A stretch of 64,000 nucleotides of DNA from positions 27,672 through 91,671 of the IMG/VR virus record IMGVR_UViG_3300020392_000009; one strand, written 5' to 3'. Origin of the DNA: a virus. Under the pieces are notes generated by a model, which did no database searches, had not been told where the DNA came from, and worked only from the letters and a program-made list of their open reading frames with translations. How positions within the stretch are numbered: the stretch's first letter is position 1; each line of letters starts with the position of its first letter. The position numbers and the translations under genes were made by a program. This document shows, piece by piece, positions 2,099 through 36,340 of the stretch.

Positions 2099-2665
2099 TT
2101 ATTCCTCCAATTCTTTTCTCCAATTTTGAGACTCTCTCATTTCTTCTACTTGTTCGGGTGTAAGATACATAGCAGGGTGAATATTTGCTCCCATCATACC
2201 GAATCTTTCGATTATTTCTTTTTGCTTTTTATTAACAAATTGTTTTACTTGTGGATTTTCTTCAAAGGTCTTTATTTCAAAATGAGGGGGGTCGCCATAT
2301 TGACCCAAAGTATAACCGTAAATAACATTCGTAGGAATATTAAATAAATAATCTTCTCCTAATCTTTCTTTATCTTGTTCATCAATACCAAAATATGTAA
2401 TTGCATCTATGTTAATATCTACGGGGTTTCCGTCAAAATCTTCTCCGCCAAAATCGCCATCTACTAAATCTCTTAATGCCACATCGCCATCAATAGTCAG
2501 TGAATATTCTTTTGACATATATGTAATATATCCTCCAGAATCAAAAAATACCTTACTGTCTTTCCCGTATATTCTTTTGAGTTCGTCTAATATCTCTTTA
2601 GTTAAATCATCAATATATTTTTGAGCCGAAGCCCTATCCATTCTTTTTAATATATCAAACCACAT
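2099..2665 (-). CDS. Hypothetical protein with an N-terminal WxDILK tag
   Basis: Probable ATG at 2665, reading MWFDILKR. Confidence 0.7.
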   Translation of the reverse strand: MWFDILKRMDRASAQKYIDDLTKEILDELKRIYGKDSKVFFDSGGYITYMSKEYSLTIDGDVALRDLVDGDFGGEDFDGNPVDINIDAITYFGIDEQDKERLGEDYLFNIPTNVIYGYTLGQYGDPPHFEIKTFEENPQVKQFVNKKQKEIIERFGMMGANIHPAMYLTPEQVEEMRESQNWRKELEE

Positions 2666-2670
2666 AACAA

Positions 2671-3342
2671 TCAATAATCCTTTATCATAGTAGTTATTCC
2701 TTTATACACCATTTCGGGGTCTGATTTTGCTGATACAATATATTTAAAACAAGGTATTCCCTTATCATTAAGTTGCCTCATACCATAAGAGAACGGCTCG
2801 AATATCTCATGTTTATCTATGGGCTTTTCACTTTTATATTTATCTCCCCAAATGTCATATTTATTAGCCCAAATACCAACTGCCATAGGATAATCCGAAT
2901 CTTTTTTCTTTCTACCAGTAGGCCAACGGCTAGCAACAATAGTATCTACTAAAAATTTCCATGCTACTTGGTGGTCTAAGTTTGATGGGTTATCTAAGTG
3001 TCTATGGTCTATCATAAATATAACATACTTTACTCTACGGGTTTGCATGTCTTTTACCCATTCTTTCCAATAAATCGCCTCTCCTCCAATATCAGCACTT
3101 TTTATTGTATGAGAGTCCCCATCTAATTTTATAGTTTTTCTAGAAGCCCTATGCAATCCCACCGTTCTTTTATTTATCTGAGGAACTTCTCCTCTAGTTC
3201 TTAATTGATAACTTAAGGTTGTTTTACCAACCATAGTAGCACCATAAACACCAAAATTAATTGCGTGAATTTTTTTGTAAAAACCTATTATGGCTTCACC
3301 AACTAGTATGGCAAAGCCTGTCATTATTGACATTAAAATCAC
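2671..3342 (-). CDS. Small Ras-superfamily GTPase, Arf/Sar-like
   Basis: G1 GATMVGKTT, G2 RTVG, G3 DIGG, G4 NKYD, G5 SAK, plus a hydrophobic N-terminal extension. Confidence 0.85.
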   Translation of the reverse strand: MILMSIMTGFAILVGEAIIGFYKKIHAINFGVYGATMVGKTTLSYQLRTRGEVPQINKRTVGLHRASRKTIKLDGDSHTIKSADIGGEAIYWKEWVKDMQTRRVKYVIFMIDHRHLDNPSNLDHQVAWKFLVDTIVASRWPTGRKKKDSDYPMAVGIWANKYDIWGDKYKSEKPIDKHEIFEPFSYGMRQLNDKGIPCFKYIVSAKSDPEMVYKGITTMIKDY

Positions 3343-3875
3343 CCGAAGTATTTTTCTAATATTTTATCTATATGAAAAATCATTTCATTTTCAGTATCTA
3401 TGTTGATAGGTAAACCAATAGCAGAAGCAATATATGTTGCATTGAGATGAGTTAATCCATCATCAATTTCATCTTTCAAATTAACTATCAATTCCTTAAC
3501 TCTAGAATCAGGTAAATATTTGTAATCTATATTATCAAGAGAAATGCCTCTGGGCATTCCCATTTCTTTTTTGTTTCTTATATTTCTATTATCGGTGTAT
3601 TCTCTATCGCCTTCTAGCCATTTCTCTTTATTTGTTTTCAAGGCTTGCTTTATCATGGGTTTATCTTTTAATTTAATTCTATCACGGGAAGAACCAAAAA
3701 TAGCATAAATTAATGCTTCATCTAAAGAAGGAGTCCAATATTCGGTATCTTCTTTTCCTTGTGTTCCTTGAAATAACTTATTGTAAGTATTAATGTAAGT
3801 TTCTGTTGGGTAATCATTTGAATCAAAAATAGTAGATTGTATTTTGTAAGGTGATTTGAGAATGTCTTTCCACAT
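3339..3875 (-). CDS. WKDILK-tagged protein, possible ADP-ribosyltransferase-like fold
   Basis: Starts MWKDILKS. LFQGT...YWTPSLDEALIYA resembles the ART LYHGT / YxTxxxxxAxxYA pattern. Confidence 0.45.
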   Translation of the reverse strand: MWKDILKSPYKIQSTIFDSNDYPTETYINTYNKLFQGTQGKEDTEYWTPSLDEALIYAIFGSSRDRIKLKDKPMIKQALKTNKEKWLEGDREYTDNRNIRNKKEMGMPRGISLDNIDYKYLPDSRVKELIVNLKDEIDDGLTHLNATYIASAIGLPINIDTENEMIFHIDKILEKYFG

Positions 3876-3876
3876 A

Positions 3877-4095
3877 TTAATGACTCCAAATATCTTTAGC
3901 CCTCTCTATAATCCAACCCATTATATTAATGTCAAAGACTCCCATAATATTACCAACTAAGAACATAGACAAAGTAGAAAAACCTCCCCAAAACCATGCT
4001 CTCATTTTCAAAAAGAAAATGTCTGCTGAGTGCGCTCTAGATTGATTATAGGCGTAGTCAGAATCAGAAAAGCCCATTATATCTCCAAGAACCAT
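3877..4095 (-). CDS. Small membrane protein
   Basis: Hydrophobic stretch AWFWGGFSTLSMFLVGNIMGVF. Confidence 0.7.
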   Translation of the reverse strand: MVLGDIMGFSDSDYAYNQSRAHSADIFFLKMRAWFWGGFSTLSMFLVGNIMGVFDINIMGWIIERAKDIWSH

Positions 4096-4106
4096 TTAGC
4101 CACCCC

Positions 4107-4496
4107 TCATTGAAGGACTGCTAAAAACTCATTACTAACGGTATTTTCATCGTTTTCATTCTGATTTGCTGAATAGGTAAAACTAGTATTATATTGCTTT
4201 GCGCTTTCAGCCATCTTTCTTCTCTGTTGGTCATCCCTAGCCTTTCTTTCCCAAAACGCAGAAATCTTTCTATCTAGTAGCCAAATTTCTATCTTGTCAT
4301 TTAGGGCTAAATCAAACAAAGCCTTCATTACCATAATTGCTCCTATTGTTCCTAGTCCAAATAATACAGAATGTGCTAAAGCACCATAAGGAAAACCAGT
4401 TCCTATTTTAGCATAAGCAAATACATTAGCCCCACTTACTGCTCCAACAAAAAGTATAGTCATTACTAATCTAGTATCTTGATTTAAAACCGCCAT
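4107..4496 (-). CDS. Two-TM membrane protein (holin-like topology possible)
   Basis: Two N-terminal hydrophobic segments followed by a charged tail. Confidence 0.7.
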   Translation of the reverse strand: MAVLNQDTRLVMTILFVGAVSGANVFAYAKIGTGFPYGALAHSVLFGLGTIGAIMVMKALFDLALNDKIEIWLLDRKISAFWERKARDDQQRRKMAESAKQYNTSFTYSANQNENDENTVSNEFLAVLQ

Positions 4497-4505
4497 TGTA
4501 AAACC

Positions 4506-4787
4506 TCATGAGAACTCAATAGAACAAGCCACTGCACCACTTACTTCCTCGAAAAATAATCCATTTTCACAAAGAACAGAATGCATATCAAACTCTATCG
4601 TTTGTCCCGAAGATAGTTTTAATCTCGCTATTTCTTTTCCGGAGTTACTAGTTCCATCAAATACTTTTACTTCTGCTGTGCTACCACCTACTTCGCAAGC
4701 ATGAATAGAAACTAATCTACAACTACCATCAAAGACAATAGCATCTGCTGTCAATACTCCGCTTGTTCTACAACCACCGCTAGGCAT
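4506..4787 (-). CDS. Small beta-rich protein, possibly virion-associated
   Basis: 93 aa, downstream of the capsid genes. Confidence 0.55.
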   Translation of the reverse strand: MPSGGCRTSGVLTADAIVFDGSCRLVSIHACEVGGSTAEVKVFDGTSNSGKEIARLKLSSGQTIEFDMHSVLCENGLFFEEVSGAVACSIEFS

Positions 4788-4843
4788 ATTATCTCCTCAA
4801 ACAGCGTTAGTTACAATACCTATTATAACTTTCCTAAGTCAAT

Positions 4844-5188: not shown

Positions 5189-5197
5189 TAAATCACC

Positions 5198-5786: not shown

Positions 5787-7172
5787 TCAAAGTAGATTTG
5801 TAATCTTACCCTGTCCTCTAAAGTATGAACAACCAGTTTCACCAATAGTTCGGTAAAGTGCTTGGTTTCCTAGAGTTCCAACACCGAATGGGTTTCCGTT
5901 ACTAATACCATCTTCAAAGTATTGAGTTGGTTTCATAACTGATAACCACAAATGGTCAGTATCTAGAATCAACATATCAGAAAGTCCAGTAGATAGAGAG
6001 TGGTGCTTTGTTGATGGCATAGCCGCAACAGGAATTAGTGGGATATCGTAATAAGTAGAAACTCTAAATCCAACTTCTTGACCCTTTACACCACGAACAC
6101 CGTTTACGGTTGGCACAATTTCTTTACCGTCCATGAATCTTTCTTGTGCTTGTAGCAAATCACTCAATGTTTGTAGAGTATCATATCCAGTTAGTATAAC
6201 TTTTGGAGAACCACCGTTTTGTCGAATCTCTCTTAGAGTTTGGTTAATCAAACTTAGAGTCAAAGACCTTTGGCCACTTGCTGAGTAAGTTCCGTCATTT
6301 ACAACTGCATTCATGAAAGAAGAGTTTGTTCCTGCTCTATCGCTGTTACCGAATAGAGTAGAAGTTTCTGCCTTTCCATTTGTCAAATCAGTATCGTCAA
6401 ATGTTCCATTCTTAATCAAGTCGTTTGCTTTCATGTTTTGTAGTTCTGCGTTGCTTGAAACAATCTTTAGTAGAGAAGTATAGTTTCTTTCAATTGTAGT
6501 AACGCCCGAAGTAATTCCTCCATCAAAGTCATAGGCTTCTAGAGGCATAACTAGCATTTGGTTCTGAACTTCTGCATGGTGCTTACCCATATCTTCACGC
6601 ATTTGCGCTCTAATGTCGCCAATACCATCATCAATTTGTGCAAGTTCCATAGCAAGTTCGCTGAACTCAAATTGATGTGCAATAATCTTTGGGCTTGTAA
6701 ATAGGGTAGAATACTTTGGTGCAATAGAAAACAATCCATCAGCATTAGTTCCTAGTTTAGCATTTTCAGGAACACCACCAATTAAATCTGCTTTAAGTGA
6801 ACTTGCTCCAACAAGTGCATCAGAGTTTGATGCTGTAGAATCAAGGTCAATAGATAGTGAATTTCCGCTACCACCAGCAGGTCTTTCTACCAATACTCTC
6901 CAACCACTTGAAACATAAGGTCTCTTTGAAATAACTGAAAGTGCATTACATTCTCTGTTTAGCATTGACCAAACTTTTTGACCAAATACTCGGTTATACA
7001 AAGCAGACCTATCTCCTATTGATGAAGTTCCGCTTCCTACTCCTAATGTGGTATCATGGCCACTGTGTAGTGCTTGAACTGCACCACTTTGTTTTAGCAA
7101 TTGACCGCTAATGCCCGATAATCCGTATGTCTGTCTTTCTAAATCTGCTATTGTGTTAATATATCCTGTCAT
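5787..7172 (-). CDS. Major capsid protein (HK97 fold)
   Basis: 461 aa directly after the protease-scaffold gene. PKIIAHQFEFSEL and GGSPKVILTG...YYDIPLIP segments are typical of HK97-type MCPs. Confidence 0.85.
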   Translation of the reverse strand: MTGYINTIADLERQTYGLSGISGQLLKQSGAVQALHSGHDTTLGVGSGTSSIGDRSALYNRVFGQKVWSMLNRECNALSVISKRPYVSSGWRVLVERPAGGSGNSLSIDLDSTASNSDALVGASSLKADLIGGVPENAKLGTNADGLFSIAPKYSTLFTSPKIIAHQFEFSELAMELAQIDDGIGDIRAQMREDMGKHHAEVQNQMLVMPLEAYDFDGGITSGVTTIERNYTSLLKIVSSNAELQNMKANDLIKNGTFDDTDLTNGKAETSTLFGNSDRAGTNSSFMNAVVNDGTYSASGQRSLTLSLINQTLREIRQNGGSPKVILTGYDTLQTLSDLLQAQERFMDGKEIVPTVNGVRGVKGQEVGFRVSTYYDIPLIPVAAMPSTKHHSLSTGLSDMLILDTDHLWLSVMKPTQYFEDGISNGNPFGVGTLGNQALYRTIGETGCSYFRGQGKITNLL

Positions 7173-11030: not shown

Positions 11031-11279
11031 TTAGAACTCATATGTATCTCCGGCTTGGCCGTAACCTACATTTGTTCCTTCTTTTTGACTTTCCGGAACA
11101 TTTTCCTCTTCTTTTGCTTTAGGTCTTTTTAGTTTCACTGCTTCATTTTTATCTTCAGAGGGAAGCCTATTATTATCTGTAAGAGATTGATGTAGTATTT
11201 CTTTAACTTCTTTGGCCTTCTCTATGGTCATAGAAATGACTCTTTCTTTCTTTGTTACTCTTTCCGGCATATACATCAT
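11031..11279 (-). CDS. Hypothetical small protein, head module
   Basis: Overlap-coupled to the upstream ORF. Confidence 0.6.
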   Translation of the reverse strand: MMYMPERVTKKERVISMTIEKAKEVKEILHQSLTDNNRLPSEDKNEAVKLKRPKAKEEENVPESQKEGTNVGYGQAGDTYEF

Positions 11280-11515
11280 CCCATACTGTCTACCATTTTA
11301 TGAATTTCGCTCCATTCCATGCCACTTACTTCTTCCTTAGTATCTATTACTTTCATCGTAGGAGATGGGCTATTTACAACAACAAGACCGGATTTCATTA
11401 ATAGATTATCGTCATTGTAAACCGTTCTTTCTAAGTTTTCTATCTTAGCAGTAAGGGCTTTTATTATCTCAAGTAGTTCTTTATTAATTGATTCTTCTTC
11501 ACTCATTTTTCTCAC
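11276..11515 (-). CDS. Small scaffold-like protein
   Basis: Coiled-coil N-terminus. C-terminal MEWSEIHKMV is nearly identical to the protease-scaffold C-terminus. Confidence 0.65.
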   Translation of the reverse strand: MRKMSEEESINKELLEIIKALTAKIENLERTVYNDDNLLMKSGLVVVNSPSPTMKVIDTKEEVSGMEWSEIHKMVDSMG

Positions 11516-13581: not shown

Positions 13582-13806
13582 CTAGAATGGAATATTTTCT
13601 TTTTTTCCTCTCTGTTTAGGTGGAAGAGTTATCACATCGGGGATATCCGCACTACTAGGCCTTGATTTTGGTGTAGTGTCTTTTGGCAGTCCTACACTAA
13701 AATCTCTATTTTTAGTAGTCTTTCTACTTTCGTTATTATTAGCGGCTCTTACCTGTGCCAACTCTTTTCTTAGTCTTATTTCTTTTTGTCTATTATCTTC
13801 GGTCAT
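13582..13806 (-). CDS. Hypothetical small protein
   Basis: ATGA overlap with the portal stop. Confidence 0.6.
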   Translation of the reverse strand: MTEDNRQKEIRLRKELAQVRAANNNESRKTTKNRDFSVGLPKDTTPKSRPSSADIPDVITLPPKQRGKKENIPF

Positions 13807-15437: not shown

Positions 15438-15489
15438 ATAACCTACCCCTAATCATTCTCAATCTACTACACATTATAGTATCTTTGGC

Positions 15490-15837
15490 TCAACTTCCCT
15501 TTCGCCACTTTTTATTTTTCTTTTCTTTTGTTTTTCTAGGACTCCATTTTACTTTATCAGCCCAATAAGCCGCAGACATTTTACCCCTCTTAATATTCTT
15601 TTTATGTCTACTTTTGAAAGCCCTTCGCTGTCCTGCGGTTTGATTTGTTTTTACTCCTTGTTGCCCAAACCTAATTGTTTTTACTTTATCACCATCTTTT
15701 ACAACAACAATGTGAGATTTACTTGGGTGTTTTGGAGTTCTTTTTGGCTTGCTGAATCCACTTACTCCGGCTCTAGCAAGAGCAGGATGTTTCTTCTTCT
15801 TCTTGAGAATATCCATCCAATTACTCATAAGCATCAC
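15490..15837 (-). CDS. Basic WxDILK-tagged protein (widespread viral family)
   Basis: MSNWMDILKK...KTIRFGQQG...MSAAYWA. Confidence 0.7.
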   Translation of the reverse strand: MMLMSNWMDILKKKKKHPALARAGVSGFSKPKRTPKHPSKSHIVVVKDGDKVKTIRFGQQGVKTNQTAGQRRAFKSRHKKNIKRGKMSAAYWADKVKWSPRKTKEKKNKKWRKGS

Positions 15838-26428: not shown

Positions 26429-26707
26429 CTACAAATTGAGTGCTTCTTCAACAGGTTCTAGTAGTTTTTCTAAATTAAAATTAGTAAATCGCTCAACTAC
26501 CATGTTATTTTCTCTAATAAAAATAGTAAAGCCCCCTCTTCCTTTTTGTAATAGTTCTAATCTTTTATCTTCAAAGTCAATAAACATTTTAATTCCTGCT
26601 TTTCCGTGACCGCCCTTTACTGCATCGGCTTCAAGTCCTAGTTTAAATGCAAAATGCTCCATAAATTGTCTAGGTAAAAGCATCTTTAGTATATTTTTCC
26701 AACTCAT
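26429..26707 (-). CDS. Tagged hypothetical protein
   Basis: Starts MSWKNILKM. Confidence 0.7.
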   Translation of the reverse strand: MSWKNILKMLLPRQFMEHFAFKLGLEADAVKGGHGKAGIKMFIDFEDKRLELLQKGRGGFTIFIRENNMVVERFTNFNLEKLLEPVEEALNL

Positions 26708-27006
26708 TGTAACTTCTCCTGCATTTGGTATAAATCGTATAGGTGGCGTTCAAAGGCATTTTTCTTACGCAGTAAATTACTTCTTTTTGGTTCTTCACTA
26801 CTATTTACTCCTGCTATTATAGATTCTAAATCTTTAATTAATTTTTGATAAGACTTTATGTATTTTCTAAGATATGTTCTTAATCCAATGTCCTCCGCCA
26901 GTTCTAAACTCCAATCCACATATTCATCTCCTGTTCTATCTTCTAAACGCTCAAGAGATTCCTTTAATTGTGATAAATCTTCTTTTAATATATCTTTCCA
27001 ACTCAT
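26704..27006 (-). CDS. Tagged hypothetical protein
   Basis: Starts MSWKDILKE. Confidence 0.7.
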   Translation of the reverse strand: MSWKDILKEDLSQLKESLERLEDRTGDEYVDWSLELAEDIGLRTYLRKYIKSYQKLIKDLESIIAGVNSSEEPKRSNLLRKKNAFERHLYDLYQMQEKLQ

Positions 27007-27666: not shown

Positions 27667-29121
27667 TTAATTCCTCAAAATATCCATCCATGATTTCAAT
27701 ACTATTCTTTCATCTGTGTTAGGTGCATTCATACTTTGTAAATCTCTAGTTCGAGTAATCACCGATTGGTTTAGCAAAGCCTTCATAGCATTCTTTGTAA
27801 GTTTGAAATTTATTTTTCTAACATCTGATAGATTAAACATATCCATTATTTTATTTCTAGAAGTGGGGGAGAAATCAAAATTCTTTTCTCTTAACATTCT
27901 AAGAGACTGGGAAGTTTGAAAGTCATTATCGTTATATAGTGAAGTATTCCTAAGTAAAGCCTGTGCATACCTCTTTATCTCCGGTATCTTTGCTAATGCT
28001 ACTGCCTGTGTCTTTTTACTAACAGGAACTACTATGTCTTGTAGTCCCTCACTTCTAAAATCAAAGCCCTTCTTTTTATCCTTGATAAGATTCTGCCATG
28101 CGGGTTTTCCATCCGGTGCTTTAGATGTTCCTCTTATCTTTAGTGCTTGCTTAACAAACATAACAATAACTTCGGGTGTAGCCTTACAAGTCACCATTCC
28201 AACTTCTCCCGCAGGAGCATCCTTTGTATTTAGTTTAGTCAATCTTTCAATTGCCTGCTTTTCTTTGTTACCTATTTTAAATTCAGTTGATTCAAACTCT
28301 CTTCTTAATTTATTTACTAATAGTTTACCATCTTTCCAAAACGCAGTATTTCTAGTGGACTTAACAAAAAAAGTTTCAAAGGCGTTTAACTTTATCCAAT
28401 CTATAAAATCATCTTCTCCTATCGGTGCGCTCCCTACCTCTATTGGTTCTGATACTGCTTGTATTGCATCTTCTAAAATATATTTAAGCCCTCTAGAATC
28501 AAACTCGGAACTGGATTTTTCATTGTATAATGCTTGATGGGGAATATTTCCGCCATCCATTGTTCCTGTAAACCAAGCGTCGGGGGCTTTAGTTGTGTTA
28601 TATTTTTTAGCATATTTAGCAGTAGCATAGTGACCTGTTATTGTTTTAGGTTTCATTGGATTTCCTCTAGAATCTTTTCTAGGCTCACTAAAAACGATAA
28701 ATGCGGGGTCTAGGGCTATTCCTTCTTTACCTACATCCTTTCCTGTTTCAAATAAATCATCCAATACCTTTGCCAAATCAGTAATATCTTCTAAGTCATC
28801 ATCGCTAAGATAGTTTTTTTGTAAAACTTTATCCATTGTTTTGATAGCCTCTACTGCCCCTTGACCTATTGCGCCAGCCCTTCTGTTTCTACTCTTTTCT
28901 CTAACATAAGTTCCAGTAAGATGATTCTTTAGAAAGTCAAAAAGAGTTGGAACATTCTTCACTTGCATTTTGCTACCGGAAGTATTCAAACAGGTTTGTT
29001 TCCACTTAGCATACTCATTAACAAAATCATACTTATCGAGGTTTTGATTGATTTCCATTCCTTTGTAATCAATCGTTTTCTTCTTTATCCTTTTTCTTTT
29101 TACCACGCTTTTTTCCCCCAT
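27667..29121 (-). CDS. Large hypothetical protein with a C-terminal tag
   Basis: 484 aa, ends VLKSWMDILRN; true start may be slightly downstream. Confidence 0.7.
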   Translation of the reverse strand: MGEKSVVKRKRIKKKTIDYKGMEINQNLDKYDFVNEYAKWKQTCLNTSGSKMQVKNVPTLFDFLKNHLTGTYVREKSRNRRAGAIGQGAVEAIKTMDKVLQKNYLSDDDLEDITDLAKVLDDLFETGKDVGKEGIALDPAFIVFSEPRKDSRGNPMKPKTITGHYATAKYAKKYNTTKAPDAWFTGTMDGGNIPHQALYNEKSSSEFDSRGLKYILEDAIQAVSEPIEVGSAPIGEDDFIDWIKLNAFETFFVKSTRNTAFWKDGKLLVNKLRREFESTEFKIGNKEKQAIERLTKLNTKDAPAGEVGMVTCKATPEVIVMFVKQALKIRGTSKAPDGKPAWQNLIKDKKKGFDFRSEGLQDIVVPVSKKTQAVALAKIPEIKRYAQALLRNTSLYNDNDFQTSQSLRMLREKNFDFSPTSRNKIMDMFNLSDVRKINFKLTKNAMKALLNQSVITRTRDLQSMNAPNTDERIVLKSWMDILRN

Positions 29122-29239
29122 AAGTTATGTTAAATAATTTTCCTGAAACTGCCGAAGGAGAAGTAGTAGTGACTGCTCCCGCTTCTTTCTCTATACTTTC
29201 CTTATTAGTCTTTTCTTTAAGAATGTCTTTCCACTTCAT
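29069..29239 (-). CDS. 56-aa tagged basic peptide (not in the ORF track)
   Basis: MKWKDILKEKTNKESIEKEAGAVTTTSPSAVSGKLFNITYGGKKRGKKKKDKEEND*. Confidence 0.65.
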   Translation of the reverse strand: MKWKDILKEKTNKESIEKEAGAVTTTSPSAVSGKLFNITYGGKKRGKKKKDKEEND

Positions 29240-29243
29240 AATA

Positions 29244-29903
29244 TCACTTATGCCACCTAAGCGAGAATTCCGTGTCTGCGTTAATTCCCGACTTTTTTGC
29301 TATTTCTTTAAAAAGAATATTTTGTTCTCTAACAAATAGTGCTTCAATAGAATAATAAGAAGGATATTTTAATGCTATTTCTGAAATTGTCTCAAGTATT
29401 AAAACAGTTTTTCCATTTTTATAAACTTGTAGGCCATTTATGCTAAATATTTCGTTGGTGTCCTTTGTCTTATTAAAGGTTCTTTCAATTCTATAATAAG
29501 TCCCATTTATCTCAATATTTTCATTGTCACTTTTTTCTTCTTTAAGCATTTCTAACGCCTTGCAAGCGACACTTTCCGGAATATTATCGGGTTCGTAAAA
29601 ATGATATATTAAGAATTCTACTATAGGAAAACTATAGTCTCTATTATTTCTTATAACAAAACTTTTGCCGTCGCCATCAGCAATAGGCTCAACCTCTATT
29701 ATCAGTTCACCATATTTACTGTAGTTCTCATGCCAACCCTCTTTCCATGTTTTTTCAACAACGGGCTTGTAATTTTTTAATTTGTTCGCTAATCTTTGTA
29801 GTTCTCTTTTACAATCATCATCTTCGATATCTATATCAATATCTTCTATCTCTTTTACACGGCCTTGCGTGATTACATTTTTAAGAATATCTTTCCATTT
29901 CAT
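29244..29903 (-). CDS. Tandem paralog 6 (WKDILK-RVKEIEDIDID family)
   Basis: MKWKDILKNVITQGRVKEIEDIDIDIEDDDC. Confidence 0.85.
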   Translation of the reverse strand: MKWKDILKNVITQGRVKEIEDIDIDIEDDDCKRELQRLANKLKNYKPVVEKTWKEGWHENYSKYGELIIEVEPIADGDGKSFVIRNNRDYSFPIVEFLIYHFYEPDNIPESVACKALEMLKEEKSDNENIEINGTYYRIERTFNKTKDTNEIFSINGLQVYKNGKTVLILETISEIALKYPSYYSIEALFVREQNILFKEIAKKSGINADTEFSLRWHK

Positions 29904-30499
29904 TAGAAAGCCCCATATCTCTCTAGTGTGTCAATAGCCCAAGTCTGTTCTAAATGCCGAAGTAACTCTTTAATAGTGTTTTTATTTTCTTTTATTCTCT
30001 CATCGGTAAGAACACCCGTCACACTAACTTTTGAGTCTGGACCGCTACCCCTTCTTTCCCAACTTATGAAAACCTCTAACGCAACATCTCCATATTCAGT
30101 ATCTCTTTTTTCTCCTAACCTTTCAAATAAAGTATAAATTTTAACAGCATATATGAATTCTTGAACACCAAAATCGGCAACAATAAAACCATGTTTCCGA
30201 TAGGTTTCCTTAGCCCTATTTTGCCTGTTTATGCTTTCAGTGTTTATGGTGTATTGTTCAGTTAAATCTTTTTTAAGAAGGCAAGCGGTTTCTTCATCTA
30301 AGTCTGGGACAGGTTCATAAAGCCATCCCTCGATTAGTAAGTTGGATGCTGGTTTTTTAATAGAAACACTACTAAGAATCTTAATAAGCCTGTCATACCA
30401 TCTACGACAATCATCTTCATCTATATCAATATCTATATCTTCTATCTCTTTCACTCTCCCTTGAGTAATAGCATTTTTTAAGATATCTTTCCAATCCAT
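29903..30499 (-). CDS. Tandem paralog 5
   Basis: MDWKDILKNAITQGRVKEIEDIDIDIDEDDC. Confidence 0.85.
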   Translation of the reverse strand: MDWKDILKNAITQGRVKEIEDIDIDIDEDDCRRWYDRLIKILSSVSIKKPASNLLIEGWLYEPVPDLDEETACLLKKDLTEQYTINTESINRQNRAKETYRKHGFIVADFGVQEFIYAVKIYTLFERLGEKRDTEYGDVALEVFISWERRGSGPDSKVSVTGVLTDERIKENKNTIKELLRHLEQTWAIDTLERYGAF

Positions 30500-31167
30500 T
30501 AATATCCCCCAAACCGTTTAGATATCACATACAAAAAAGAACCCTCTCCATAATTAACATCTGTTCTAGTAGTATGTTCTGAAATTACATTACTTATTGC
30601 TCTATCTACATACTTAACATAATCATCAAAGAATACTCTATTATCACAATGTTTAGAAAATTGTTTTATCATTTTTGCATATGGCTCATAGAAAGAAATT
30701 AACTTATTATAAACTTCTTTATCTGTATCATTAGGATTAGTAAATTCTTTTATTAAATTATCCGTTGATGCTTCCATACTATCTTCAAAAAGCCCAAAAA
30801 ATACCGCCCATTCTTGATATTTGGGTAGTTTTACCGAAATACTAAAAACATAGTCCCTTCCCTTATTGACATAAAAAATAAATATTGGAAAACGACCATC
30901 TTCCTTCCTAAGTTTAAAACTAATACCATCATAATTTTCTAATTTGTCTTTTAGTTCACAAGCCAGTTCTTCTGAAACTAAATTTATATCTCCGTATGTT
31001 GCAAATTTTCTGTGCAATCTGTGTGTAGGTTTGTATGATTTTATTATTTGGTGTAATCGTATTAGCCACCTTCTGCAATCATCATCTTCTATATCAATAT
31101 CTATATCCTCAATTTCTTTCACTCTACTTTGAGTAATAACATTTTTTAAGATATCTTTCCAAACCAT
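30499..31167 (-). CDS. Tandem paralog 4
   Basis: MVWKDILKNVITQSRVKEIEDIDIDIEDDDC. Confidence 0.85.
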   Translation of the reverse strand: MVWKDILKNVITQSRVKEIEDIDIDIEDDDCRRWLIRLHQIIKSYKPTHRLHRKFATYGDINLVSEELACELKDKLENYDGISFKLRKEDGRFPIFIFYVNKGRDYVFSISVKLPKYQEWAVFFGLFEDSMEASTDNLIKEFTNPNDTDKEVYNKLISFYEPYAKMIKQFSKHCDNRVFFDDYVKYVDRAISNVISEHTTRTDVNYGEGSFLYVISKRFGGY

Positions 31168-31856
31168 TAATATCCCCCGAAACTGCTCTTTATAGCCCTT
31201 TCAAAAACATCATCGTCAAGGTTAATATTATCGTCAAATCTTCCGCCTAATTGCTCAGAACGCATTAACAGCACTTTTTTCACCCTTCTTGCTACATGAC
31301 TTATATAATTATCAAAGAATATTCTATTCTTACAATGTTTAGAAAATTGTTTTATCATTTTTCCATATGGCTTATAGAAAGATACTAAGTCATCAAAAAG
31401 TTGTAGAAATGGTTCATCCGGTTTAATAAATTCCTCTAGCAATATTCGAGGAAAACTACCACCAGCATGTGTTGTTATCGACCATGCCCTATTTTTAGGC
31501 TGTCCTGCCAAAATTATAAGAGTATGGCCTAAAGTTCTAGGGTTATAAAAAAATCCAGCCCCATCTTCTACCTCATCATCAAGACTGGGAGCAAAGCCGA
31601 GATATACCGCAGAACCATCATGGTTTTCTAATTTGCTTTTTATTAGACAAGCCTGTTCTTCTGTAACTCCAGTTATATCTCCATTTGTTACAACCTTACC
31701 ATGCATTTTGTGTGTAGGCTTGTATGATTTTATTATTCGTTCTAATTGTATTAGCCATCTGCTACAATCATCGTCGTCAATATCTATATCAATATCCTCT
31801 ATCTCTTTTACCCTACTTTGAGTAATAACATTCTTGAGAATATCTATCCAATTCAT
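31167..31856 (-). CDS. Tandem paralog 3
   Basis: Probable start 31856: MNWIDILKNVITQSRVKEIEDIDIDIDDDDC. Confidence 0.85.
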   Translation of the reverse strand: MNWIDILKNVITQSRVKEIEDIDIDIDDDDCSRWLIQLERIIKSYKPTHKMHGKVVTNGDITGVTEEQACLIKSKLENHDGSAVYLGFAPSLDDEVEDGAGFFYNPRTLGHTLIILAGQPKNRAWSITTHAGGSFPRILLEEFIKPDEPFLQLFDDLVSFYKPYGKMIKQFSKHCKNRIFFDNYISHVARRVKKVLLMRSEQLGGRFDDNINLDDDVFERAIKSSFGGY

Positions 31857-31857
31857 A

Positions 31858-32538
31858 TTACTCCCCCCCCTTATACTTACCATTAAATTTCTTTCTTGCT
31901 TCTTTCGATGAATCCGGTATTTTTCTAACCCTTTCCATGTAATCCTGCATCAATCTTCTAGTGCCTGTAAAATCCCAAGAACAATGCCTATATAACCTCT
32001 CAAGAAATCTAAATAAATTTTTATCGGAATCAGCAAAATCGTCAAAATCTACCCTTTCAATATGAATTTCAATAAACGATTCGTCTAATTCTTCAAAAGT
32101 ATTTCTTGGCCAAGATTCCATAAATCTAAGACTAAGGCTAAGATAAGGTTTTATAGTCCGTTCATACCTATAAGGGTCGCCTTCTTCTTCAACAACAGAT
32201 AGTCCCATTCTTACTATACTTTCTCCTCTTTTATTGCTTCCCTCAATCCTAGTATGAGAATTGAAAGGAATAGGCAAGTCTCCCTTTTTATTTACTACCA
32301 AAGTTTTTTCTATCGCTTCTTTAAATTCACAGGCTTCTGCTTCTGTTATACCTTTACCAACCTTATTGTCTGTTAAGTTATCCATTCCCGCGTCTTTCTT
32401 AGCAAAGCCTACAATAATATCTTGAAGTTGTTTAAGCCATCTAAGACAATCATCATCTTCTATATCAATGTCTATATCCTCAATTTCTTTTACCCTACTT
32501 TGGGTAACAGTTTCCTTTAAGATATCCTGCCACCTCAT
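31858..32538 (-). CDS. Tandem paralog 2
   Basis: Probable start 32538: MRWQDILKETVTQSRVKEIEDIDIDIEDDDC. Confidence 0.85.
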   Translation of the reverse strand: MRWQDILKETVTQSRVKEIEDIDIDIEDDDCLRWLKQLQDIIVGFAKKDAGMDNLTDNKVGKGITEAEACEFKEAIEKTLVVNKKGDLPIPFNSHTRIEGSNKRGESIVRMGLSVVEEEGDPYRYERTIKPYLSLSLRFMESWPRNTFEELDESFIEIHIERVDFDDFADSDKNLFRFLERLYRHCSWDFTGTRRLMQDYMERVRKIPDSSKEARKKFNGKYKGGE

Positions 32539-32543
32539 ATTAA

Positions 32544-33188
32544 TCACTCATGCCAACTAAATCCAAATTCTCTTGCGTCATAATATCCTGAGTATTTATA
32601 TATTCCCATAGTATCAATTTTATTATCGTTTTCATCATAAATACCAGTAAAGAACTCACCATTTGACCACGATAAAATTATAGAAAAGGGTTTACCTTTC
32701 TCAGCAATAATGAGTTCATTGATATTATATTGATAGTCAAAATTAAAACTTCTCATTATTTCCCAATCTACTCCATCGTGTTCAAAATCATATATTTTAT
32801 ATGTATCACCTACAGCCGATTCATTTCTTTGATGGCTTTTTAAAATTTCCAATGCTTTACAGGCTACGGGTTCGGGAACAGGATTATAGAGGAATTTAGC
32901 ACTTTCAAAAAACTCTGAAAATTGTTTATTTAATTTTTTTTGAGATAATGAAAAATTTTTTTTATTGACCGCAGGATTGTTATCCTCTATTATTTCAAAA
33001 TATTCTGCATTTCTTGGCCAACCTGCCTTCCACCGTTCTTCTAAAAGAAGATTGTAATTTTTCAATTTATTTGCCATTTGCTGTAGTTTTCTATTACAGT
33101 CATCATCCTCAATATCAATATCTATATCTTCGATTTCCTTAACCCTATTTTGGGCTATCGTTTCTTTAAGGATATCTTGCCATGACAA
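32544..33188 (-). CDS. Tandem paralog 1
   Basis: MSWQDILKETIAQNRVKEIEDIDIDIEDDDC. Confidence 0.85.
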   Translation of the reverse strand: MSWQDILKETIAQNRVKEIEDIDIDIEDDDCNRKLQQMANKLKNYNLLLEERWKAGWPRNAEYFEIIEDNNPAVNKKNFSLSQKKLNKQFSEFFESAKFLYNPVPEPVACKALEILKSHQRNESAVGDTYKIYDFEHDGVDWEIMRSFNFDYQYNINELIIAEKGKPFSIILSWSNGEFFTGIYDENDNKIDTMGIYKYSGYYDAREFGFSWHE

Positions 33189-33189
33189 T

Positions 33190-33951
33190 TCAATCCCTCA
33201 AATGATTAGACCAACTCTTACTAACCCAATCAAAATCTTTAGGGAACGGGGAAATAAATTCTCCTAATATTTGAGCAAGGGCATTCATTTCTATCGGGTA
33301 TATCTTGTCGCCTTCGGGCAGACTTCTATCAATAATCATTCTTTCAATGACTCCTAATTTGACCATATCTTGGGTTACATTAAAGGTGTAATTTATCTTA
33401 AATTGCTTATCTTTTACTAGTTCTTTGAGAGTATTTTTGACCTTTTTTTCTGTTTCGTTTATTTTAACTCTATCTATTTCACTATCCATAGAATCTTGTA
33501 AATCTTCTCTTAATTCATCTAAGGCAGAATATAAGACTTTTCTAACTTCAGACATCGCTTCATCAGTAACCAACTTTGCTATGTTTTTTATTACTTCTAT
33601 TTGTTTAGGAGTAAATTTAAATTGTTCTTTTTCGGGGTCGGGTTCTTCTTCCAATACTGCTATTTCTCCTAAATCTGCTATCTCCTGCAAATCTTCTTGA
33701 AACTGCTCATCTTGTAATTTATTTTGAAATACATTAAGAGGCGCTGATAAAGCCTCTAACATAACTTCCTCTATCTTAGGAACAGATAAAAATTCAGTTC
33801 CTTCTAATTCTCTAATGTATTTGCTTACTAAATTTTTAGAGGTTTCTATGTAAATACCCCTACTTTTCGCTTGACTAGCCAAATTCTGCAAAACTTTTAA
33901 CAATCTATTCATAAAAGGATTTCTTTCTTTTAATATATATTTCCAACTCAT
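33190..33951 (-). CDS. Hypothetical protein tagged at both ends
   Basis: Starts MSWKYILKE; ends VSKSWSNHLRD. Confidence 0.7.
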   Translation of the reverse strand: MSWKYILKERNPFMNRLLKVLQNLASQAKSRGIYIETSKNLVSKYIRELEGTEFLSVPKIEEVMLEALSAPLNVFQNKLQDEQFQEDLQEIADLGEIAVLEEEPDPEKEQFKFTPKQIEVIKNIAKLVTDEAMSEVRKVLYSALDELREDLQDSMDSEIDRVKINETEKKVKNTLKELVKDKQFKINYTFNVTQDMVKLGVIERMIIDRSLPEGDKIYPIEMNALAQILGEFISPFPKDFDWVSKSWSNHLRD

Positions 33952-34526
33952 TTTTTATCACCTAAATACTTGTGATGATACTTCTTCTTACCAACCTGCC
34001 TACCCTCTCCTGAAAACGGATTATATGGGCGATTTCTTGCTTTCATTCTAGCCCTTGTTGGCATTGGGTTAGTTTTGATACCTCCCATTCCAAGCCCTCT
34101 CTTTTTTCCTTTTCTTTGTTGATTTGCCTTTGGTTGAGGTTGTCCGTAACTAGGTGAATCTGTTACATTACCAAACTCTTCTTCTAGTTCTTGCATTTCT
34201 ATATCTCTAACTTTTTTAGAATCTCTTGGATTTCTATTTTGTCTTTTGAGCCTAAGTTCTTCTCTTTCACGCTTTTTTCTACCTCTATTTATTAGTCGCA
34301 TTTCTTTTTCGTTAAAAAAACTACCTTTCCCTTTTGCTTTCTTTTGACCTAAGCGTTCTTCTGTTTGTCGTTGTTTAGTTTCTCTATTAATTTGAGTTTG
34401 CTCAAATTTACTAGGTCGCCTAAAACCACCAAAAAGGCTGTCTTTGCCTTTAAAATAAGATTCAGCATCTTTAGTATAGGGATATTTTTCATCCTTACTT
34501 CTCTTCAAGATATTTTTCCAACTCAT
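33948..34526 (-). CDS. Basic, low-complexity tagged protein
   Basis: Starts MSWKNILKR; K/R-rich. Confidence 0.7.
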   Translation of the reverse strand: MSWKNILKRSKDEKYPYTKDAESYFKGKDSLFGGFRRPSKFEQTQINRETKQRQTEERLGQKKAKGKGSFFNEKEMRLINRGRKKREREELRLKRQNRNPRDSKKVRDIEMQELEEEFGNVTDSPSYGQPQPKANQQRKGKKRGLGMGGIKTNPMPTRARMKARNRPYNPFSGEGRQVGKKKYHHKYLGDKK

Positions 34527-34630: not shown

Positions 34631-34631
34631 A

Positions 34632-35012
34632 TTATTCATCTCTTGTATATTCTAAATCATATTTTAAATCGCCTAAAACAGAAGCAAATATTTTATTTTT
34701 CATCAAATCTTGCATGATATCATACTTCTTCGTTCCATCAAGTATGCTTCTTATTTTTCTTTCTAATATACGCTCTGTTTGCTTCCTATCATAAAACCCT
34801 TTCTTAACCAGTTGTTGTGCAGGGGTAGTCAATATTTGTAATACACTTTCCGGTATTTTATCTACTTCTTCCATGAGGTTTTTTACTATTTCTTTAGTAG
34901 CCATATAACTTTCTTTTCCTCCATCGGGATTTCTCCTACCGCTACCGTCGGATAATCTATAAGGTGTATCTTTGATACTTATTTTTTTCTTTATCTCATC
35001 TTTCCATGTCAT
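34632..35012 (-). CDS. Tagged hypothetical protein
   Basis: Starts MTWKDEIKK. Confidence 0.7.
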   Translation of the reverse strand: MTWKDEIKKKISIKDTPYRLSDGSGRRNPDGGKESYMATKEIVKNLMEEVDKIPESVLQILTTPAQQLVKKGFYDRKQTERILERKIRSILDGTKKYDIMQDLMKNKIFASVLGDLKYDLEYTRDE

Positions 35013-35371
35013 GATACATCACCTGTAAAGCCCCTACCCCTGCTCCTTAGTCTTTTCAAATCCTTTGCGTCAATATCACCGTCATTATCAGTATCTAATT
35101 TCTTTTGGCCACCAACAAGTTTCTTTTTCTTTTTACCCATCTTTTCTTCTTCTTTCATTAATCTTGTAGGTAAATCGTCATACGCTCCTTCTATTACTTG
35201 AACTGCTTCTTCTACATCGTCGAGAGATATATTCAAAGCCCTAGCAATACTTAGATTACTAGGTGGGGAATCGGGATATTTCGCCATCCTTTTATCTACA
35301 TACGCTTTTACTTTCTTAGCATTTAGCAACTTAGTAGTTCTCTTAACTTTCAGTATATCTTGCCATGCCAT
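35009..35371 (-). CDS. Tagged protein with HTH-like and EF-hand-like motifs
   Basis: MAWQDILKV...PSNLSIARALNIS...LDTDNDGDIDAKDL. Confidence 0.65.
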   Translation of the reverse strand: MAWQDILKVKRTTKLLNAKKVKAYVDKRMAKYPDSPPSNLSIARALNISLDDVEEAVQVIEGAYDDLPTRLMKEEEKMGKKKKKLVGGQKKLDTDNDGDIDAKDLKRLRSRGRGFTGDVS

Positions 35372-35372
35372 G

Positions 35373-35513
35373 TTAATCCCCTTTAATTTTATCAAGATAT
35401 TCTTTTATTCTTTTGGCTTGGCTTTCATGCATCTCAACTGCTTTGCCTAGTTCTTCGATTATTTTTTCTAGTTCTGCTACACTACTTTTCTTTATTTCTT
35501 CTTTCCATGTCAT
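35373..35513 (-). CDS. 46-aa tagged coiled-coil peptide (not in the ORF track)
   Basis: MTWKEEIKKSSVAELEKIIEELGKAVEMHESQAKRIKEYLDKIKGD*. Confidence 0.65.
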   Translation of the reverse strand: MTWKEEIKKSSVAELEKIIEELGKAVEMHESQAKRIKEYLDKIKGD

Positions 35514-35518
35514 ATTAA

Positions 35519-35743
35519 TCAATCCCTCTTTCTAAGTCGTTTAATTTCTGTTATATCTGCTTGACATAATTTTATTATTTTTTGAAGTGGTTTTATTAAA
35601 AATTTACTACCTTCTTTTTTTACTTTCTCATCTAAATCAGGTGTTGCCACAAGTTCGTCATATTCATCTAATAATTCTCTTATGGTGTTTTTTCTCCAAC
35701 CTATGTTCTTTTTAATAATATCTTTCCATGCCATATTATTCAC
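35519..35743 (-). CDS. Tagged hypothetical protein
   Basis: MAWKDIIKK near the start. Confidence 0.65.
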   Translation of the reverse strand: MNNMAWKDIIKKNIGWRKNTIRELLDEYDELVATPDLDEKVKKEGSKFLIKPLQKIIKLCQADITEIKRLRKRD

Positions 35744-35747
35744 CTAA

Positions 35748-36047
35748 TCAAACCGGATATATTATTACACATTTATCGTTGTCGTCAAGATTTCTTGGAA
35801 TTTGACCTGTGTTTTGAAGAATACTAATAGCACTAGGATTATTGGGAGCATATTCTATTCTTAAATCGCCATCTGTTTCTTCAATGATAATTCCTTCGGC
35901 AATCCTATCAATTTGTATTGCCTTTGTCATCATATGTTCATCAATATAAACTGTGCTAGATTTATCAAATGTGTTTAATTTTGCTATCAATTCACCTACT
36001 GTCATTCCAACTTTTCTTTGCTTTCTTATCTCTTCTTTCCATGTCAT
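35748..36047 (-). CDS. Tagged hypothetical protein
   Basis: MTWKEEIRKQRKVG followed by an MTVGELIAKL domain start. Confidence 0.7.
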   Translation of the reverse strand: MTWKEEIRKQRKVGMTVGELIAKLNTFDKSSTVYIDEHMMTKAIQIDRIAEGIIIEETDGDLRIEYAPNNPSAISILQNTGQIPRNLDDNDKCVIIYPV

Positions 36048-36057
36048 ATTAATTTCT

Positions 36058-36080
36058 CCTAAAATTTTGTGGCGGATTTT
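36058..36080 (-). promoter_or_regulatory. Repeated upstream motif, copy 1 (TCCGCCACAAA core on the minus strand)
   Basis: cctaaaattttgtggcggatttt; near-identical copy at 36355. Confidence 0.5.
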
Positions 36081-36082
36081 TT

Positions 36083-36340
36083 TTACCTCTTTCTAACTTT
36101 GCCACCATCTAAAATAACCCTCGCATAAAAACGATTAAATTCTTGCAGATGTTTGTTAAATCCTCCTGCATCATCTTTCAATGCCATATCACTCATTTGA
36201 GAAATTATCTTATCTGCTTCTTTTCTTTCCTTCTCACTTAAATCATATGTCTTCATATCATCAACAACTCTTTCAACGGTTGAAAGAAGCCTTGTTGATT
36301 TCTTTCGTTGGTTATCATTTTTTAATATCTTTTTCCACAT
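36083..36340 (-). CDS. Tagged hypothetical protein
   Basis: Starts MWKKILKN. Confidence 0.7.
   Translation of the reverse strand: MWKKILKNDNQRKKSTRLLSTVERVVDDMKTYDLSEKERKEADKIISQMSDMALKDDAGGFNKHLQEFNRFYARVILDGGKVRKR

What the first reader, a model, noticed from the sequence alone, without database searches (positions are those of the whole stretch)
2099..36340. Genome-wide WxDILK peptide tag on about 29 late-arm proteins: candidate capsid-targeting and cargo-loading system
Seen: about 26 minus-strand ORFs begin M-x-W-x-[DNE]-[IEV]-[LI]-K. Examples are MWFDILK 2665, MWKDILK 3875, WMDILK 15837/16393, WQDIIK 16731, WQDILK 18246, WLEILK 26417, WKNILK 26707/34526, WKDILK 27006/29239, the six array genes, WKEEIK 35513 and WKKILK 36340. 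One copy is internal (16731..17291). Three proteins carry it at the C-terminus after K-S: IEKSWHLILKRY*, VLKSWMDILRN*, VSKSWSNHLRD*. The bodies are mostly unrelated (PAP2 phosphatase, ART-like, basic peptides, a 707-aa protein). I saw no copy in the plus-strand replication arm. Known: the HK97 prohead protease cuts after Lys, and T4 internal proteins are packaged via a short N-terminal capsid-targeting sequence that the prohead protease removes. Inference: WxxIL is a procapsid/scaffold-docking helix. The N-terminal copies end in K and the C-terminal copies are preceded by K-S, so a K-specific cut would release the tag from either end. This would be a modular way to load dozens of effectors into the head for delivery at infection.
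Basis: partly seen in the sequence, partly recalled or inferred. Interest (0 to 1): 0.92.

Follow-up and report, generated by a model that had tools for sequence, protein, structure and literature searches.

The report
Shared eight-residue tag on magrovirus proteins
About a third of the genes on the head-gene side of this ocean archaeal virus (a magrovirus) start with the same eight amino acids, MSWxDILK; this is most likely an address-and-cut label that loads a fast-changing set of proteins into the capsid, but packaging has not been shown.

Summary
In this 91.7-kb magrovirus-like genome, 25-26 minus-strand ORFs start M-x-W-x-[DNE]-[IVE]-[LI]-K. One copy is internal and three are C-terminal. 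The replication arm and the tail genes have none (23/68 vs 0/51 ORFs, p=5e-7).

- **Selection is on the peptide.** Ile and Leu codons in the tag follow genome usage.
- **Tagged genes are accessory.** 15 of 22 have no homologue in four sister genomes; most untagged arm genes are core. None has a membrane segment.
- **The tag is an add-on.** Phage homologues of two tagged bodies lack it.
- **A sister lineage uses a different tag.** Its MCP is 36% identical and its tag is AFDxAWx[VL]LK. One shared cargo domain carries each lineage's own tag at the same place.
- **The tag resembles head-assembly motifs.** It matches the conserved tail of the protease-scaffold and of a mini-scaffold (MDWS[DE]IHK). 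Its DILK end matches the invariant FDILK at the protease-domain boundary.

Best reading (about 0.5): a capsid-targeting and protease-trimming tag that works like the phage T4 capsid targeting sequence (CTS). Packaging and cleavage are untested. The scaffold-tail match fails in the sister lineage.

This scan has already reported the same tag on several other magrovirus genomes. I found no paper that mentions it.

The parts
2099..2665 (-). tagged accessory gene, MWFDILK, inserted between core neck/head genes
   Evidence: no homologue in G001-G004
3339..3875 (-). tagged accessory gene, MWKDILK
5787..7172 (-). major capsid protein (SU10/HK97 type), untagged; candidate receptor
   Evidence: PF17236; halovirus MCPs at 23% identity
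7174..8469 (-). S78 prohead protease fused to a scaffold domain. FDILK lies at the protease-domain end, ETILKAQ before the tail, and the tail is MDWSEIHKMVGGY
11276..11515 (-). 79-aa mini-scaffold with the same tail, MEWSEIHKMVDSMG; present in all five genomes
13803..15437 (-). portal protein, untagged
   Evidence: PF04860
15490..15837 (-). tagged basic protein, MSNWMDILK. The body is a phrog_7595 domain and carries the sister tag in G009
15821..16393 (-). tagged PAP2-domain protein, MSWMDILK
16390..16731 (-). tagged basic protein, MSWQDIIK
16731..17291 (-). 49-aa module, then an internal tag KKSWKDILK, then the body. The same module and tag carry a different body in L007
17275..17763 (-). tagged gene, MSWLNVIK
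17769..18119 (-). ORF with INWRNILK at residue 29. The PHROG body starts after it, so the start may be non-canonical or the tag internal
18034..18246 (-). tagged 70-aa basic protein, MSWQDILK. The phrog_17747 profile aligns from residue 9
19754..21175 (-). terminase large subunit, untagged
21177..21695 (-). 172-aa protein with a C-terminal copy, IEKSWHLILKRY*
24294..26417 (-). 707-aa protein, the only conserved tagged family (652-815 aa in relatives). The tag residues are among the few invariant columns
26429..26707 (-). tagged gene, MSWKNILK
26704..27006 (-). tagged gene, MSWKDILK, flanked by a 41-nt direct repeat covering the ribosome-binding site (RBS) and the tag
27667..29121 (-). core 484-aa protein ending IVLK-SWMDILRN*. 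Orthologues end [IV]VLK-x-MWQSLLW
29069..29239 (-). tagged 56-aa ORF, MKWKDILK
29244..33188 (-). six tandem paralogues (198-238 aa), each starting M-x-W-x-DILK plus a shared leader of about 35 aa
33190..33951 (-). tagged gene, MSWKYILK, that also ends VSKSWSNHLRD*
33948..34526 (-). tagged basic protein, MSWKNILK
34632..36340 (-). six small tagged genes with starts at 35012, 35371, 35513, 35734, 36047 and 36340: MTWKDEIK, MAWQDILK, MTWKEEIK, MAWKDIIK, MTWKEEIR, MWKKILK

Best explanation
MSWxDILK is a peptide-level address tag carried by the variable, soluble accessory proteins encoded among the head genes of this magrovirus.

Proposed mechanism, all inferred:
- The short amphipathic Trp helix (W, I and L on one face) docks the protein inside the assembling procapsid. 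It would use the site that binds the conserved C-terminal tail (MDWS[DE]IHK) of the protease-scaffold and mini-scaffold, or another lineage-specific site.
- The [DI]LK end is a cutting site for the virus's own S78 prohead protease, which trims the tag after Lys.
- C-terminal copies have the mirror layout: [IV]LK, then the Trp helix, then the end of the protein.
- The loaded proteins would enter the next host cell with the DNA, as T4 internal proteins do.

Because every cassette starts with the same ribosome-binding site (RBS) and tag, the tag also serves as a joint where bodies are swapped by recombination.

Shown: the motif, its distribution, peptide-level selection, add-on nature, lineage specificity, similarity to the head-assembly motifs, and cassette exchange.

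Inferred: docking, cleavage, packaging and delivery.
For: 1. **Peptide-level selection.** Ile and Leu codons in 430 unique tags follow genome codon usage, and both the first and third Leu positions vary.
2. **Distribution.** Only the head-gene arm is tagged. Relatives with 57-70% MCP identity have 10-21 tagged genes, all on the MCP strand, with 0 control hits.
3. **Tagged genes are accessory.** 15 of 22 have no homologue in four sister genomes, against 29 of 51 untagged arm genes found in all five. In the one conserved tagged family, M1, W3, L7 and K8 are four of only nine invariant columns.
4. **The tag is an add-on.** PHROG profiles of phage homologues begin right after it: phrog_7595 from residue 13, phrog_17747 from residue 9. 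The roseophage P12053L homologue has no tag.
5. **Lineage-specific tags on the same body.** The sister lineage has zero WxDILK hits. It carries AFDxAWx[VL]LK on structural-strand accessory genes instead. The basic domain of 15490-15837 is 64% identical to a G009 domain that is preceded by PADLAWVVLK at the same position.
6. **Match to the scaffold tail.** Of 136,000 non-N-terminal 8-mers, all ten protease-scaffold and mini-scaffold tails fall in the top ~25 scores of the tag's position-specific scoring matrix (PSSM). The tail is conserved in 79 of 79 loci and in distant homologues.
7. **Match to the protease-domain boundary.** The boundary is FDILK in 66/66 own-lineage and F-x-ILK in 48/48 sister sequences. 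A [TV]I[LA]K[AS] site lies before the tail. HK97 gp5 reads FNK103/S104.
8. **Consistent with soluble cargo.** No tagged protein has a membrane segment, and several are very basic. One body has a weak hit to phrog_220, 'minor head protein and DNA pilot'.
9. **Precedent.** T4 internal proteins are diverse apart from a conserved capsid targeting sequence (PMC3012670).
Against: - No proteomic, structural or biochemical data place any tagged protein in a virion.
- The temporal class of the tagged cluster at 26-36 kb is unknown. It lies next to the divergent intergenic region and could be early.
- In the sister lineage the scaffold tail is the same (MSWEEVHQLA) but the tag does not resemble it (rank above 600). 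Scaffold-tail mimicry is therefore not general.
- [IV]LK triplets are common in this Lys/Ile/Leu-rich proteome.
- The F-x-ILK strand at the protease-domain end is widespread in S78 proteases and may be conserved for folding rather than cutting.
- The AF2 model of the 707-aa tagged protein was too poor to use (pLDDT 46).
- No multimer modelling was possible.
Confidence: 0.5

Rival explanations
1. The tag is a docking peptide for a different common partner, not the capsid. Candidates are the virus-encoded GroEL/GroES chaperonin, another assembly or replication hub, a host factor, or a virus factory.
For: Short terminal peptides shared by many clients are how hub proteins recruit partners. The tag works at the N-terminus, internally and at the C-terminus, which fits a generic linear motif. 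Both tag-bearing lineages encode a chaperonin. The sister tag does not resemble the scaffold tail.
Against: Tagged genes lie only among the head genes and never among accessory genes of the replication arm. The closest non-tag matches in the proteome are head-assembly proteins. The ubiquitin-like E1 and JAB genes have no BLAST homologue in the sister lineage, which also uses a tag. No host test was possible.
Confidence: 0.22
2. The motif is mainly a protease recognition and cleavage site for processing or activation, including polyprotein-like precursors. It has no targeting role.
For: The sister lineage has repeated internal copies inside large ORFs: PMD[FL]AWRLLK twice in an 881-aa ORF, twice in a 302-aa ORF, and once before the basic domain in a 477-aa ORF. 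The tag ends in the same [IV]LK as the protease-domain boundary. HK97 gp5 reads K103/S104.
Against: An 8-residue N-terminal propeptide on 25 unrelated small proteins has no obvious purpose unless it also sorts them. The prohead protease is normally active only inside procapsids, so its substrates must get there. The invariant Trp, five or six residues before the Lys, is not explained by the boundary motif in this lineage (F at P5, W at P6).
Confidence: 0.15
3. The conservation serves nucleic-acid functions, with the peptide as a by-product: a recombination joint for cassette exchange, or a translation-initiation or coupling element.
For: A 41-nt repeat of RBS plus tag (38/41 identical) flanks gene 26704-27006. 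Bodies are exchanged exactly at the tag between G000 and L007. Ser at position 2 is AGT in 86% of cases against 23% genome-wide. A at +4 is frequent genome-wide.
Against: Synonymous sites of Ile, Leu and Lys vary as in the rest of the genome. Substitutions are conservative at the protein level (I/V, L/I, D/N/E, K/R). Trp and Lys are near-invariant in 430 tags. C-terminal and internal copies keep the peptide. The sister lineage has a different peptide with the same layout.
Confidence: 0.05

Closest known systems
Capsid targeting sequence (CTS) of phage T4 internal proteins IPI-III and Alt, and the polymorphic internal-protein loci of T-even phages
   Same: A short N-terminal leader is shared by otherwise unrelated, fast-evolving proteins encoded with the head genes. 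In T4 the leader loads them into the prohead core and is removed by the prohead protease, and the cargo is injected with the DNA (PMC3012670).
   Different: There is no sequence similarity. T4 uses the gp21 protease and cuts after Glu, whereas here the protease is S78 (HK97 type) and the motif ends in Lys. The scale is far larger, 25-30 genes per genome against a handful. Copies also occur internally and at C-termini. The host is archaeal. Packaging is unproven here.
C-terminal capsid-binding tails of scaffolding proteins and of the HK97 maturation protease (Duda, Oh and Hendrix 2013, J Mol Biol 425:2765; the reference was seen, its content is from memory). Also the shared scaffold tail of 80alpha and SaPI1 CpmB (from memory)
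   Same: A short terminal helix shared by two head-assembly proteins (the protease-scaffold and a 79-aa mini-scaffold) sits where such tails bind the coat. The tag matches it in register: M-x-W-x-[DE]-I-x-K.
   Different: Here the motif is copied onto dozens of non-assembly proteins, mostly at the N-terminus. The sister lineage keeps the tail but uses an unrelated-looking tag.
Herpesvirus assemblin-scaffold arrangement, with release and maturation sites sharing one consensus (from memory)
   Same: A protease is fused to a scaffold, and a shorter scaffold shares the same C-terminal tail. There are candidate cut sites at the protease-scaffold boundary (FDILK) and before the tail (ETILKAQ) with a common ILK core.
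   Different: The protease fold family differs, the cut sites are not demonstrated, and herpesviruses have no cargo tags.
Encapsulin cargo-loading peptides (from memory)
   Same: A short terminal peptide that loads diverse cargo into an HK97-fold shell.
   Different: The consensus differs, and it is usually C-terminal and not cleaved.

Membership tests
T4-type capsid targeting sequence system | One short leader shared by otherwise unrelated proteins | tested here: met
   25-26 ORFs; bodies fall in separate BLAST families
T4-type capsid targeting sequence system | Tagged genes are polymorphic between related viruses while the leader is kept | tested here: met
   15 of 22 have no homologue in four sister genomes; 430 unique tags share one consensus
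T4-type capsid targeting sequence system | The leader ends at the prohead protease's cleavage consensus and is removed | tested here: inconclusive
   The tag ends in [DI]LK, as do the invariant FDILK at the protease-domain end and ETILK before the scaffold tail. HK97 gp5 reads K103/S104. No cleavage data exist.
T4-type capsid targeting sequence system | Tagged proteins are present inside the virion | not testable with these tools
   No proteomic data on hand. There is only a weak hit of one body to phrog_220, 'minor head protein and DNA pilot'.
T4-type capsid targeting sequence system | Sequence homology to the T4 leader and use of the gp21-type protease | tested here: not met
   The peptide is different and the protease is Pfam S78. 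This is an analogue, not a member.
Scaffold or protease C-terminal capsid-binding tail | A conserved terminal peptide on the scaffold and protease | tested here: met
   MDW[SAN][DE]IHKMVGG in 79 of 79 loci, also on the mini-scaffold, and related tails in distant homologues
Scaffold or protease C-terminal capsid-binding tail | The tag resembles the tail across lineages | tested here: inconclusive
   In this lineage the tails are in the top ~25 of 136,000 8-mers. In the sister lineage they are not (rank above 600).
Scaffold or protease C-terminal capsid-binding tail | The peptide binds the inner face of the capsid protein | not testable with these tools
   No multimer modelling or binding data.
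Secretion or membrane signal peptide | A hydrophobic core follows the N-terminal region | tested here: not met
   Charged residues follow the tag, and none of the 23 tagged proteins has a membrane segment.

The most novel reading that the evidence does not exclude
Magroviruses carry a lineage-specific, modular capsid cargo code. A Trp helix docks any protein inside the procapsid, and an adjacent [IV]LK site lets the S78 protease clip it. A quarter to a third of head-arm genes (over 4,000 residues of coding capacity here) would then be delivered as a rapidly reshuffled effector set, with the tag DNA doubling as the recombination joint for swapping cassettes.
Probability: 0.4. Interest if true: 0.85.

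Novelty: new variant of a known kind. Interest (0 to 1): 0.7.

Why it matters
Magroviruses are among the most abundant viruses of ocean archaea, and most of their genes have no known function. A tag that marks a fifth of the proteome as one functional class would label dozens of orphan genes per genome at once.

If it is a loading signal, this would be the largest natural capsid cargo system known and the first in an archaeal virus. It would point to the genes most likely to act at the start of infection, such as host takeover or counter-defence.

It would also offer a simple eight-residue handle for loading proteins into HK97-fold shells. The prediction is directly testable with existing viral-fraction metaproteomes and with co-expression in E. 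coli.

Tried and rejected
**Readings rejected**
- DNA-level conservation: synonymous sites vary.
- Signal peptide or membrane targeting: no hydrophobic core and no membrane segments.
- Halovirus relatives: HVTV-1 has no tag and a different protease tail.
- Breadth beyond magroviruses: 29-68 kb tag-rich contigs are fragments (33-72% complete). Where an MCP is present, it belongs to the same family.
- Ubiquitin-like system as the reader of the tag: the sister lineage has a tag but no BLAST homologue of E1 or JAB.
- 'ART-like', DUF6321 and DUF5872 labels: not reproduced by Pfam.

**Steps that led nowhere**
- Function of the 707-aa tagged protein: no hit in Pfam, PHROGs, PDB profile search or the Atlas. 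AF2 gave pLDDT 46, so I ran no fold search.
- The P0011 scan of viral contigs found nothing.
- A replication factor C (RFC) query in cellular genomes found nothing, so I could not reach host genomes to test for the tag there.
- Rfam and tRNA scans found nothing.

- PMC3709472 is not held.

Full report
**What the window is**

The window is bases 27,672-91,671 of a 91,671-bp IMG/VR virus record rated 99% complete. The minus arm encodes these head genes:

| Gene | Coordinates | Evidence |
|---|---|---|
| SU10/HK97-type major capsid protein | 5787-7172 | PF17236 |
| S78 prohead protease with a long C-terminal scaffold domain | 7174-8469 | PF04586 |
| Portal | 13803-15437 | PF04860 |
| Terminase large subunit | 19754-21175 | Terminase_6N/6C |

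The plus arm, by the N-terminal sequences of its ORFs (no family search was run on them), looks like it encodes a clamp loader, a clamp, a GroEL/GroES-like pair and other replication genes. The MCP is about 23% identical to MCPs of haloarchaeal tailed viruses. It has about 600 relatives in IMG/VR, many on 92-97-kb contigs.

- 25 minus-strand ORFs have W-x-x-[IVE]-[LI]-[KR] one or two codons after ATG, TTG or GTG.
- One more copy (18032, INWRNILK) lacks a canonical start.
- One copy is internal (17153).
- Three are C-terminal, each preceded by K-S.

The plus arm, the tail genes and the rest of the genome have none. The split is 23 of 68 against 0 of 51 ORFs, p=5e-7. A Shine-Dalgarno-like GGAGG/GGTGA sits 8-14 nt upstream of the starts.

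**It is a peptide, not a DNA signal**

Within the window, Ile is ATA/ATT/ATC 9/9/5. Leu uses six codons and differs at both the first and third positions. Lys is AAA/AAG 17/8.

In 430 unique tags pooled from about 200 related loci, Ile and Leu codon usage matches genome usage. The Asp and Lys figures are biased by the search pattern used. The consensus is M-[STN]-W-[KEQF]-[DN]-I-L-K, and nothing is conserved after the Lys.

Position 2 is mostly encoded by A-starting codons (AGT is 86% of Ser codons against 23% genome-wide). A at +4 is common in all genes. That position is therefore probably shaped by start-site context or by ATGA overlaps.

**Who carries it**

Four complete relatives with 64-70% MCP identity have 10-21 tagged genes, all on the MCP strand. 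A member with 57% MCP identity still has ten tags in 9.5 kb.

Tagged genes are the variable part of the arm. 15 of 22 have no homologue in the other four genomes, whereas 29 of 51 untagged arm genes are in all five. The only conserved tagged family is the 652-815-aa protein at 24294-26417. There, M1, W3, L7 and K8 are four of only nine invariant columns. No tagged protein has a membrane segment, and several are very basic.

**The tag is an add-on and a joint**

PHROG profiles built from phage homologues align from just after the tag: phrog_7595 from residue 13 of 15490-15837, and phrog_17747 from residue 9 of 18034-18246. The roseophage P12053L homologue starts directly with the basic domain.

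A 49-aa module followed by KKSWKDILK is joined to one body in this genome (16731-17291). In the close relative L007 it is joined to a different body, and that body is the next, separately tagged gene here. A 41-nt repeat of ribosome-binding site plus tag (38/41 identical) flanks gene 26704-27006. Cassettes are therefore exchanged at the tag.

**A sister lineage has its own tag**

A lineage with 36% MCP identity and 38% protease identity (genomes of 102-107 kb) has no WxDILK pattern at all. It carries M-x(1-4)-[AP]-F-[DE]-x-A-W-x-[VLI]-[LI]-K on structural-strand accessory genes, and has one C-terminal copy.

The basic domain of 15490-15837 recurs there at 64% identity. It is preceded at the same position by PADLAWVVLK, inside a 477-aa ORF that also lies between terminase and portal. 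A second body shows the same swap. The same cargo therefore wears the address of whichever lineage it is in.

That lineage also has repeated internal copies in large ORFs. These look like fused cassettes or polyprotein junctions.

**Link to head assembly**

- *Scaffold tail.* The protease-scaffold ends LPxM[DE]ELAEMDW[SAN][DE]IHKMVGG in 79 of 79 loci. A core 74-92-aa helical protein (11276-11515 here) ends the same way. When a tag position-specific scoring matrix (PSSM) is scored over 136,000 non-N-terminal 8-mers of five genomes, all ten of these tails are in the top ~25. Most of the 8-mers above them are tags with miscalled starts or the K-S-W copies. Distant protease-scaffold homologues keep a [KEN]-M-[SD]-W-x-[DE]-[IV]-[HNE]-x-L tail. 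Scaffold and protease tails are known capsid-binding or capsid-targeting elements. This rests on my knowledge of P22, 80alpha and HK97; the reference to Duda et al. 2013 was seen, but the paper is not held.
- *Protease-domain boundary.* The boundary reads [KR]FDILK[QE] in 66 of 66 own-lineage sequences and F[RSK]ILK in 48 of 48 sister sequences. A [TV]I[LA]K[AS] site lies about 25 residues before the tail. The tags end D-I-L-K here and aromatic-x-[VL]-L-K in the sister. The tag ends therefore track the boundary motif in both lineages.
- *C-terminal copies.* The core 484-aa protein ends IVLK-SWMDILRN, and its orthologues end [IV]VLK-x-MWQSLLW. This is the mirror layout: cut site, then Trp helix.
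- *HK97 precedent.* HK97, the type S78 system, has FNK103/S104 in gp5. The cut after K103 is from memory.

**Caveats**

- The sister tag does not resemble the shared scaffold tail (rank above 600). Scaffold mimicry may be particular to this lineage or coincidental.
- [IV]LK is frequent in this proteome, and F-x-ILK may be a structural strand of S78 proteases.
- The temporal class of the tagged cluster is unknown. From 36340 downward the genes are nearly gapless through terminase, portal and MCP, which suggests co-transcription but does not prove it.
- Nothing shows that any tagged protein is in a particle.

**Comparison and novelty**

The system works like the T4 capsid targeting sequence, in which diverse internal proteins share only a conserved leader (PMC3012670). 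It is not a member of that family: the peptide, the protease family and the cut residue all differ.

Three magrovirus papers and a full-text search do not mention any such motif. Earlier notes of this scan report the same tag, and the sister tag, on several other magrovirus genomes with the same reading. Those are unchecked AI notes, not independent evidence.

- The cross-lineage tag swap on homologous cargo.
- Cassette exchange at the tag.
- The PHROG profile boundaries starting just after the tag.
- The boundary-motif match in both lineages.
- The failure of scaffold-tail mimicry in the sister lineage.

**Verdict**

The feature is real and lineage-wide, and it is under selection as a peptide. 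The most likely function is capsid loading with protease trimming, at about 0.5. I class it as a new variant of a known kind.

Noticed in passing
window 26685-27024: A 41-nt direct repeat (38/41 identical) covering the end of the upstream gene, the ribosome-binding site and the first tag codons flanks the 100-aa tagged gene 26704-27006. It looks like a footprint of cassette insertion or duplication at the tag.
   Followed up: partly
window 16731-17291 versus L007:22-489: A 49-aa N-terminal module (MPITKKKDGYYWGSRG...AYASGY) followed by an internal tag is fused to different bodies in two close relatives. The body used in L007 is the next separate tagged gene in this genome.
   Followed up: yes
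window 15490-15837: The basic domain is 44-77% identical to small hypothetical proteins of roseophages, cyanophages and other marine phages (for example Celeribacter phage P12053L gp37, beside peptidoglycan-binding and membrane proteins). It also hits phrog_220, 'minor head protein and DNA pilot', weakly. A domain shared between bacterial and archaeal marine viruses.
   Followed up: partly
window 8527-11016: An 829-aa protein with an ATP-dependent DNA ligase domain sits inside the head module, between the mini-scaffold and the protease. In the sister lineage the same place holds 1857-1932-aa giant proteins that share this region.
   Followed up: no
window 36047-36083 and 36340-36400: The sequence TCCGCCACAAA(A)TTTT(A/G)AGGA recurs just upstream of two adjacent tagged genes. 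AT-rich promoter-like stretches lie at 36400-36470 and 36760-36950.
   Followed up: no
window 38171-38716, 38939-39673, 40334-40834: Three paralogous core genes flank the divergent intergenic region between the two arms.
   Followed up: no
G008 90542-92735 (L308), G009 14917-15536 (L298): In the sister lineage, seven tandem genes on the replication arm all start MIDTDKYEGH. This is another shared N-terminus, possibly a paralogue family or a second tag.
   Followed up: no
G009 1-2644 and 91208-92116 (L298, L302): Large sister-lineage ORFs contain two internal copies each of the sister tag (PMD[FL]AWRLLK). They look like in-frame fused cassettes or polyprotein junctions.
   Followed up: partly
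window 50157-51295: The genes that another first-stage note calls E1 and JAB are in all five own-lineage genomes. They have no BLAST homologue in the sister lineage.
   Followed up: partly
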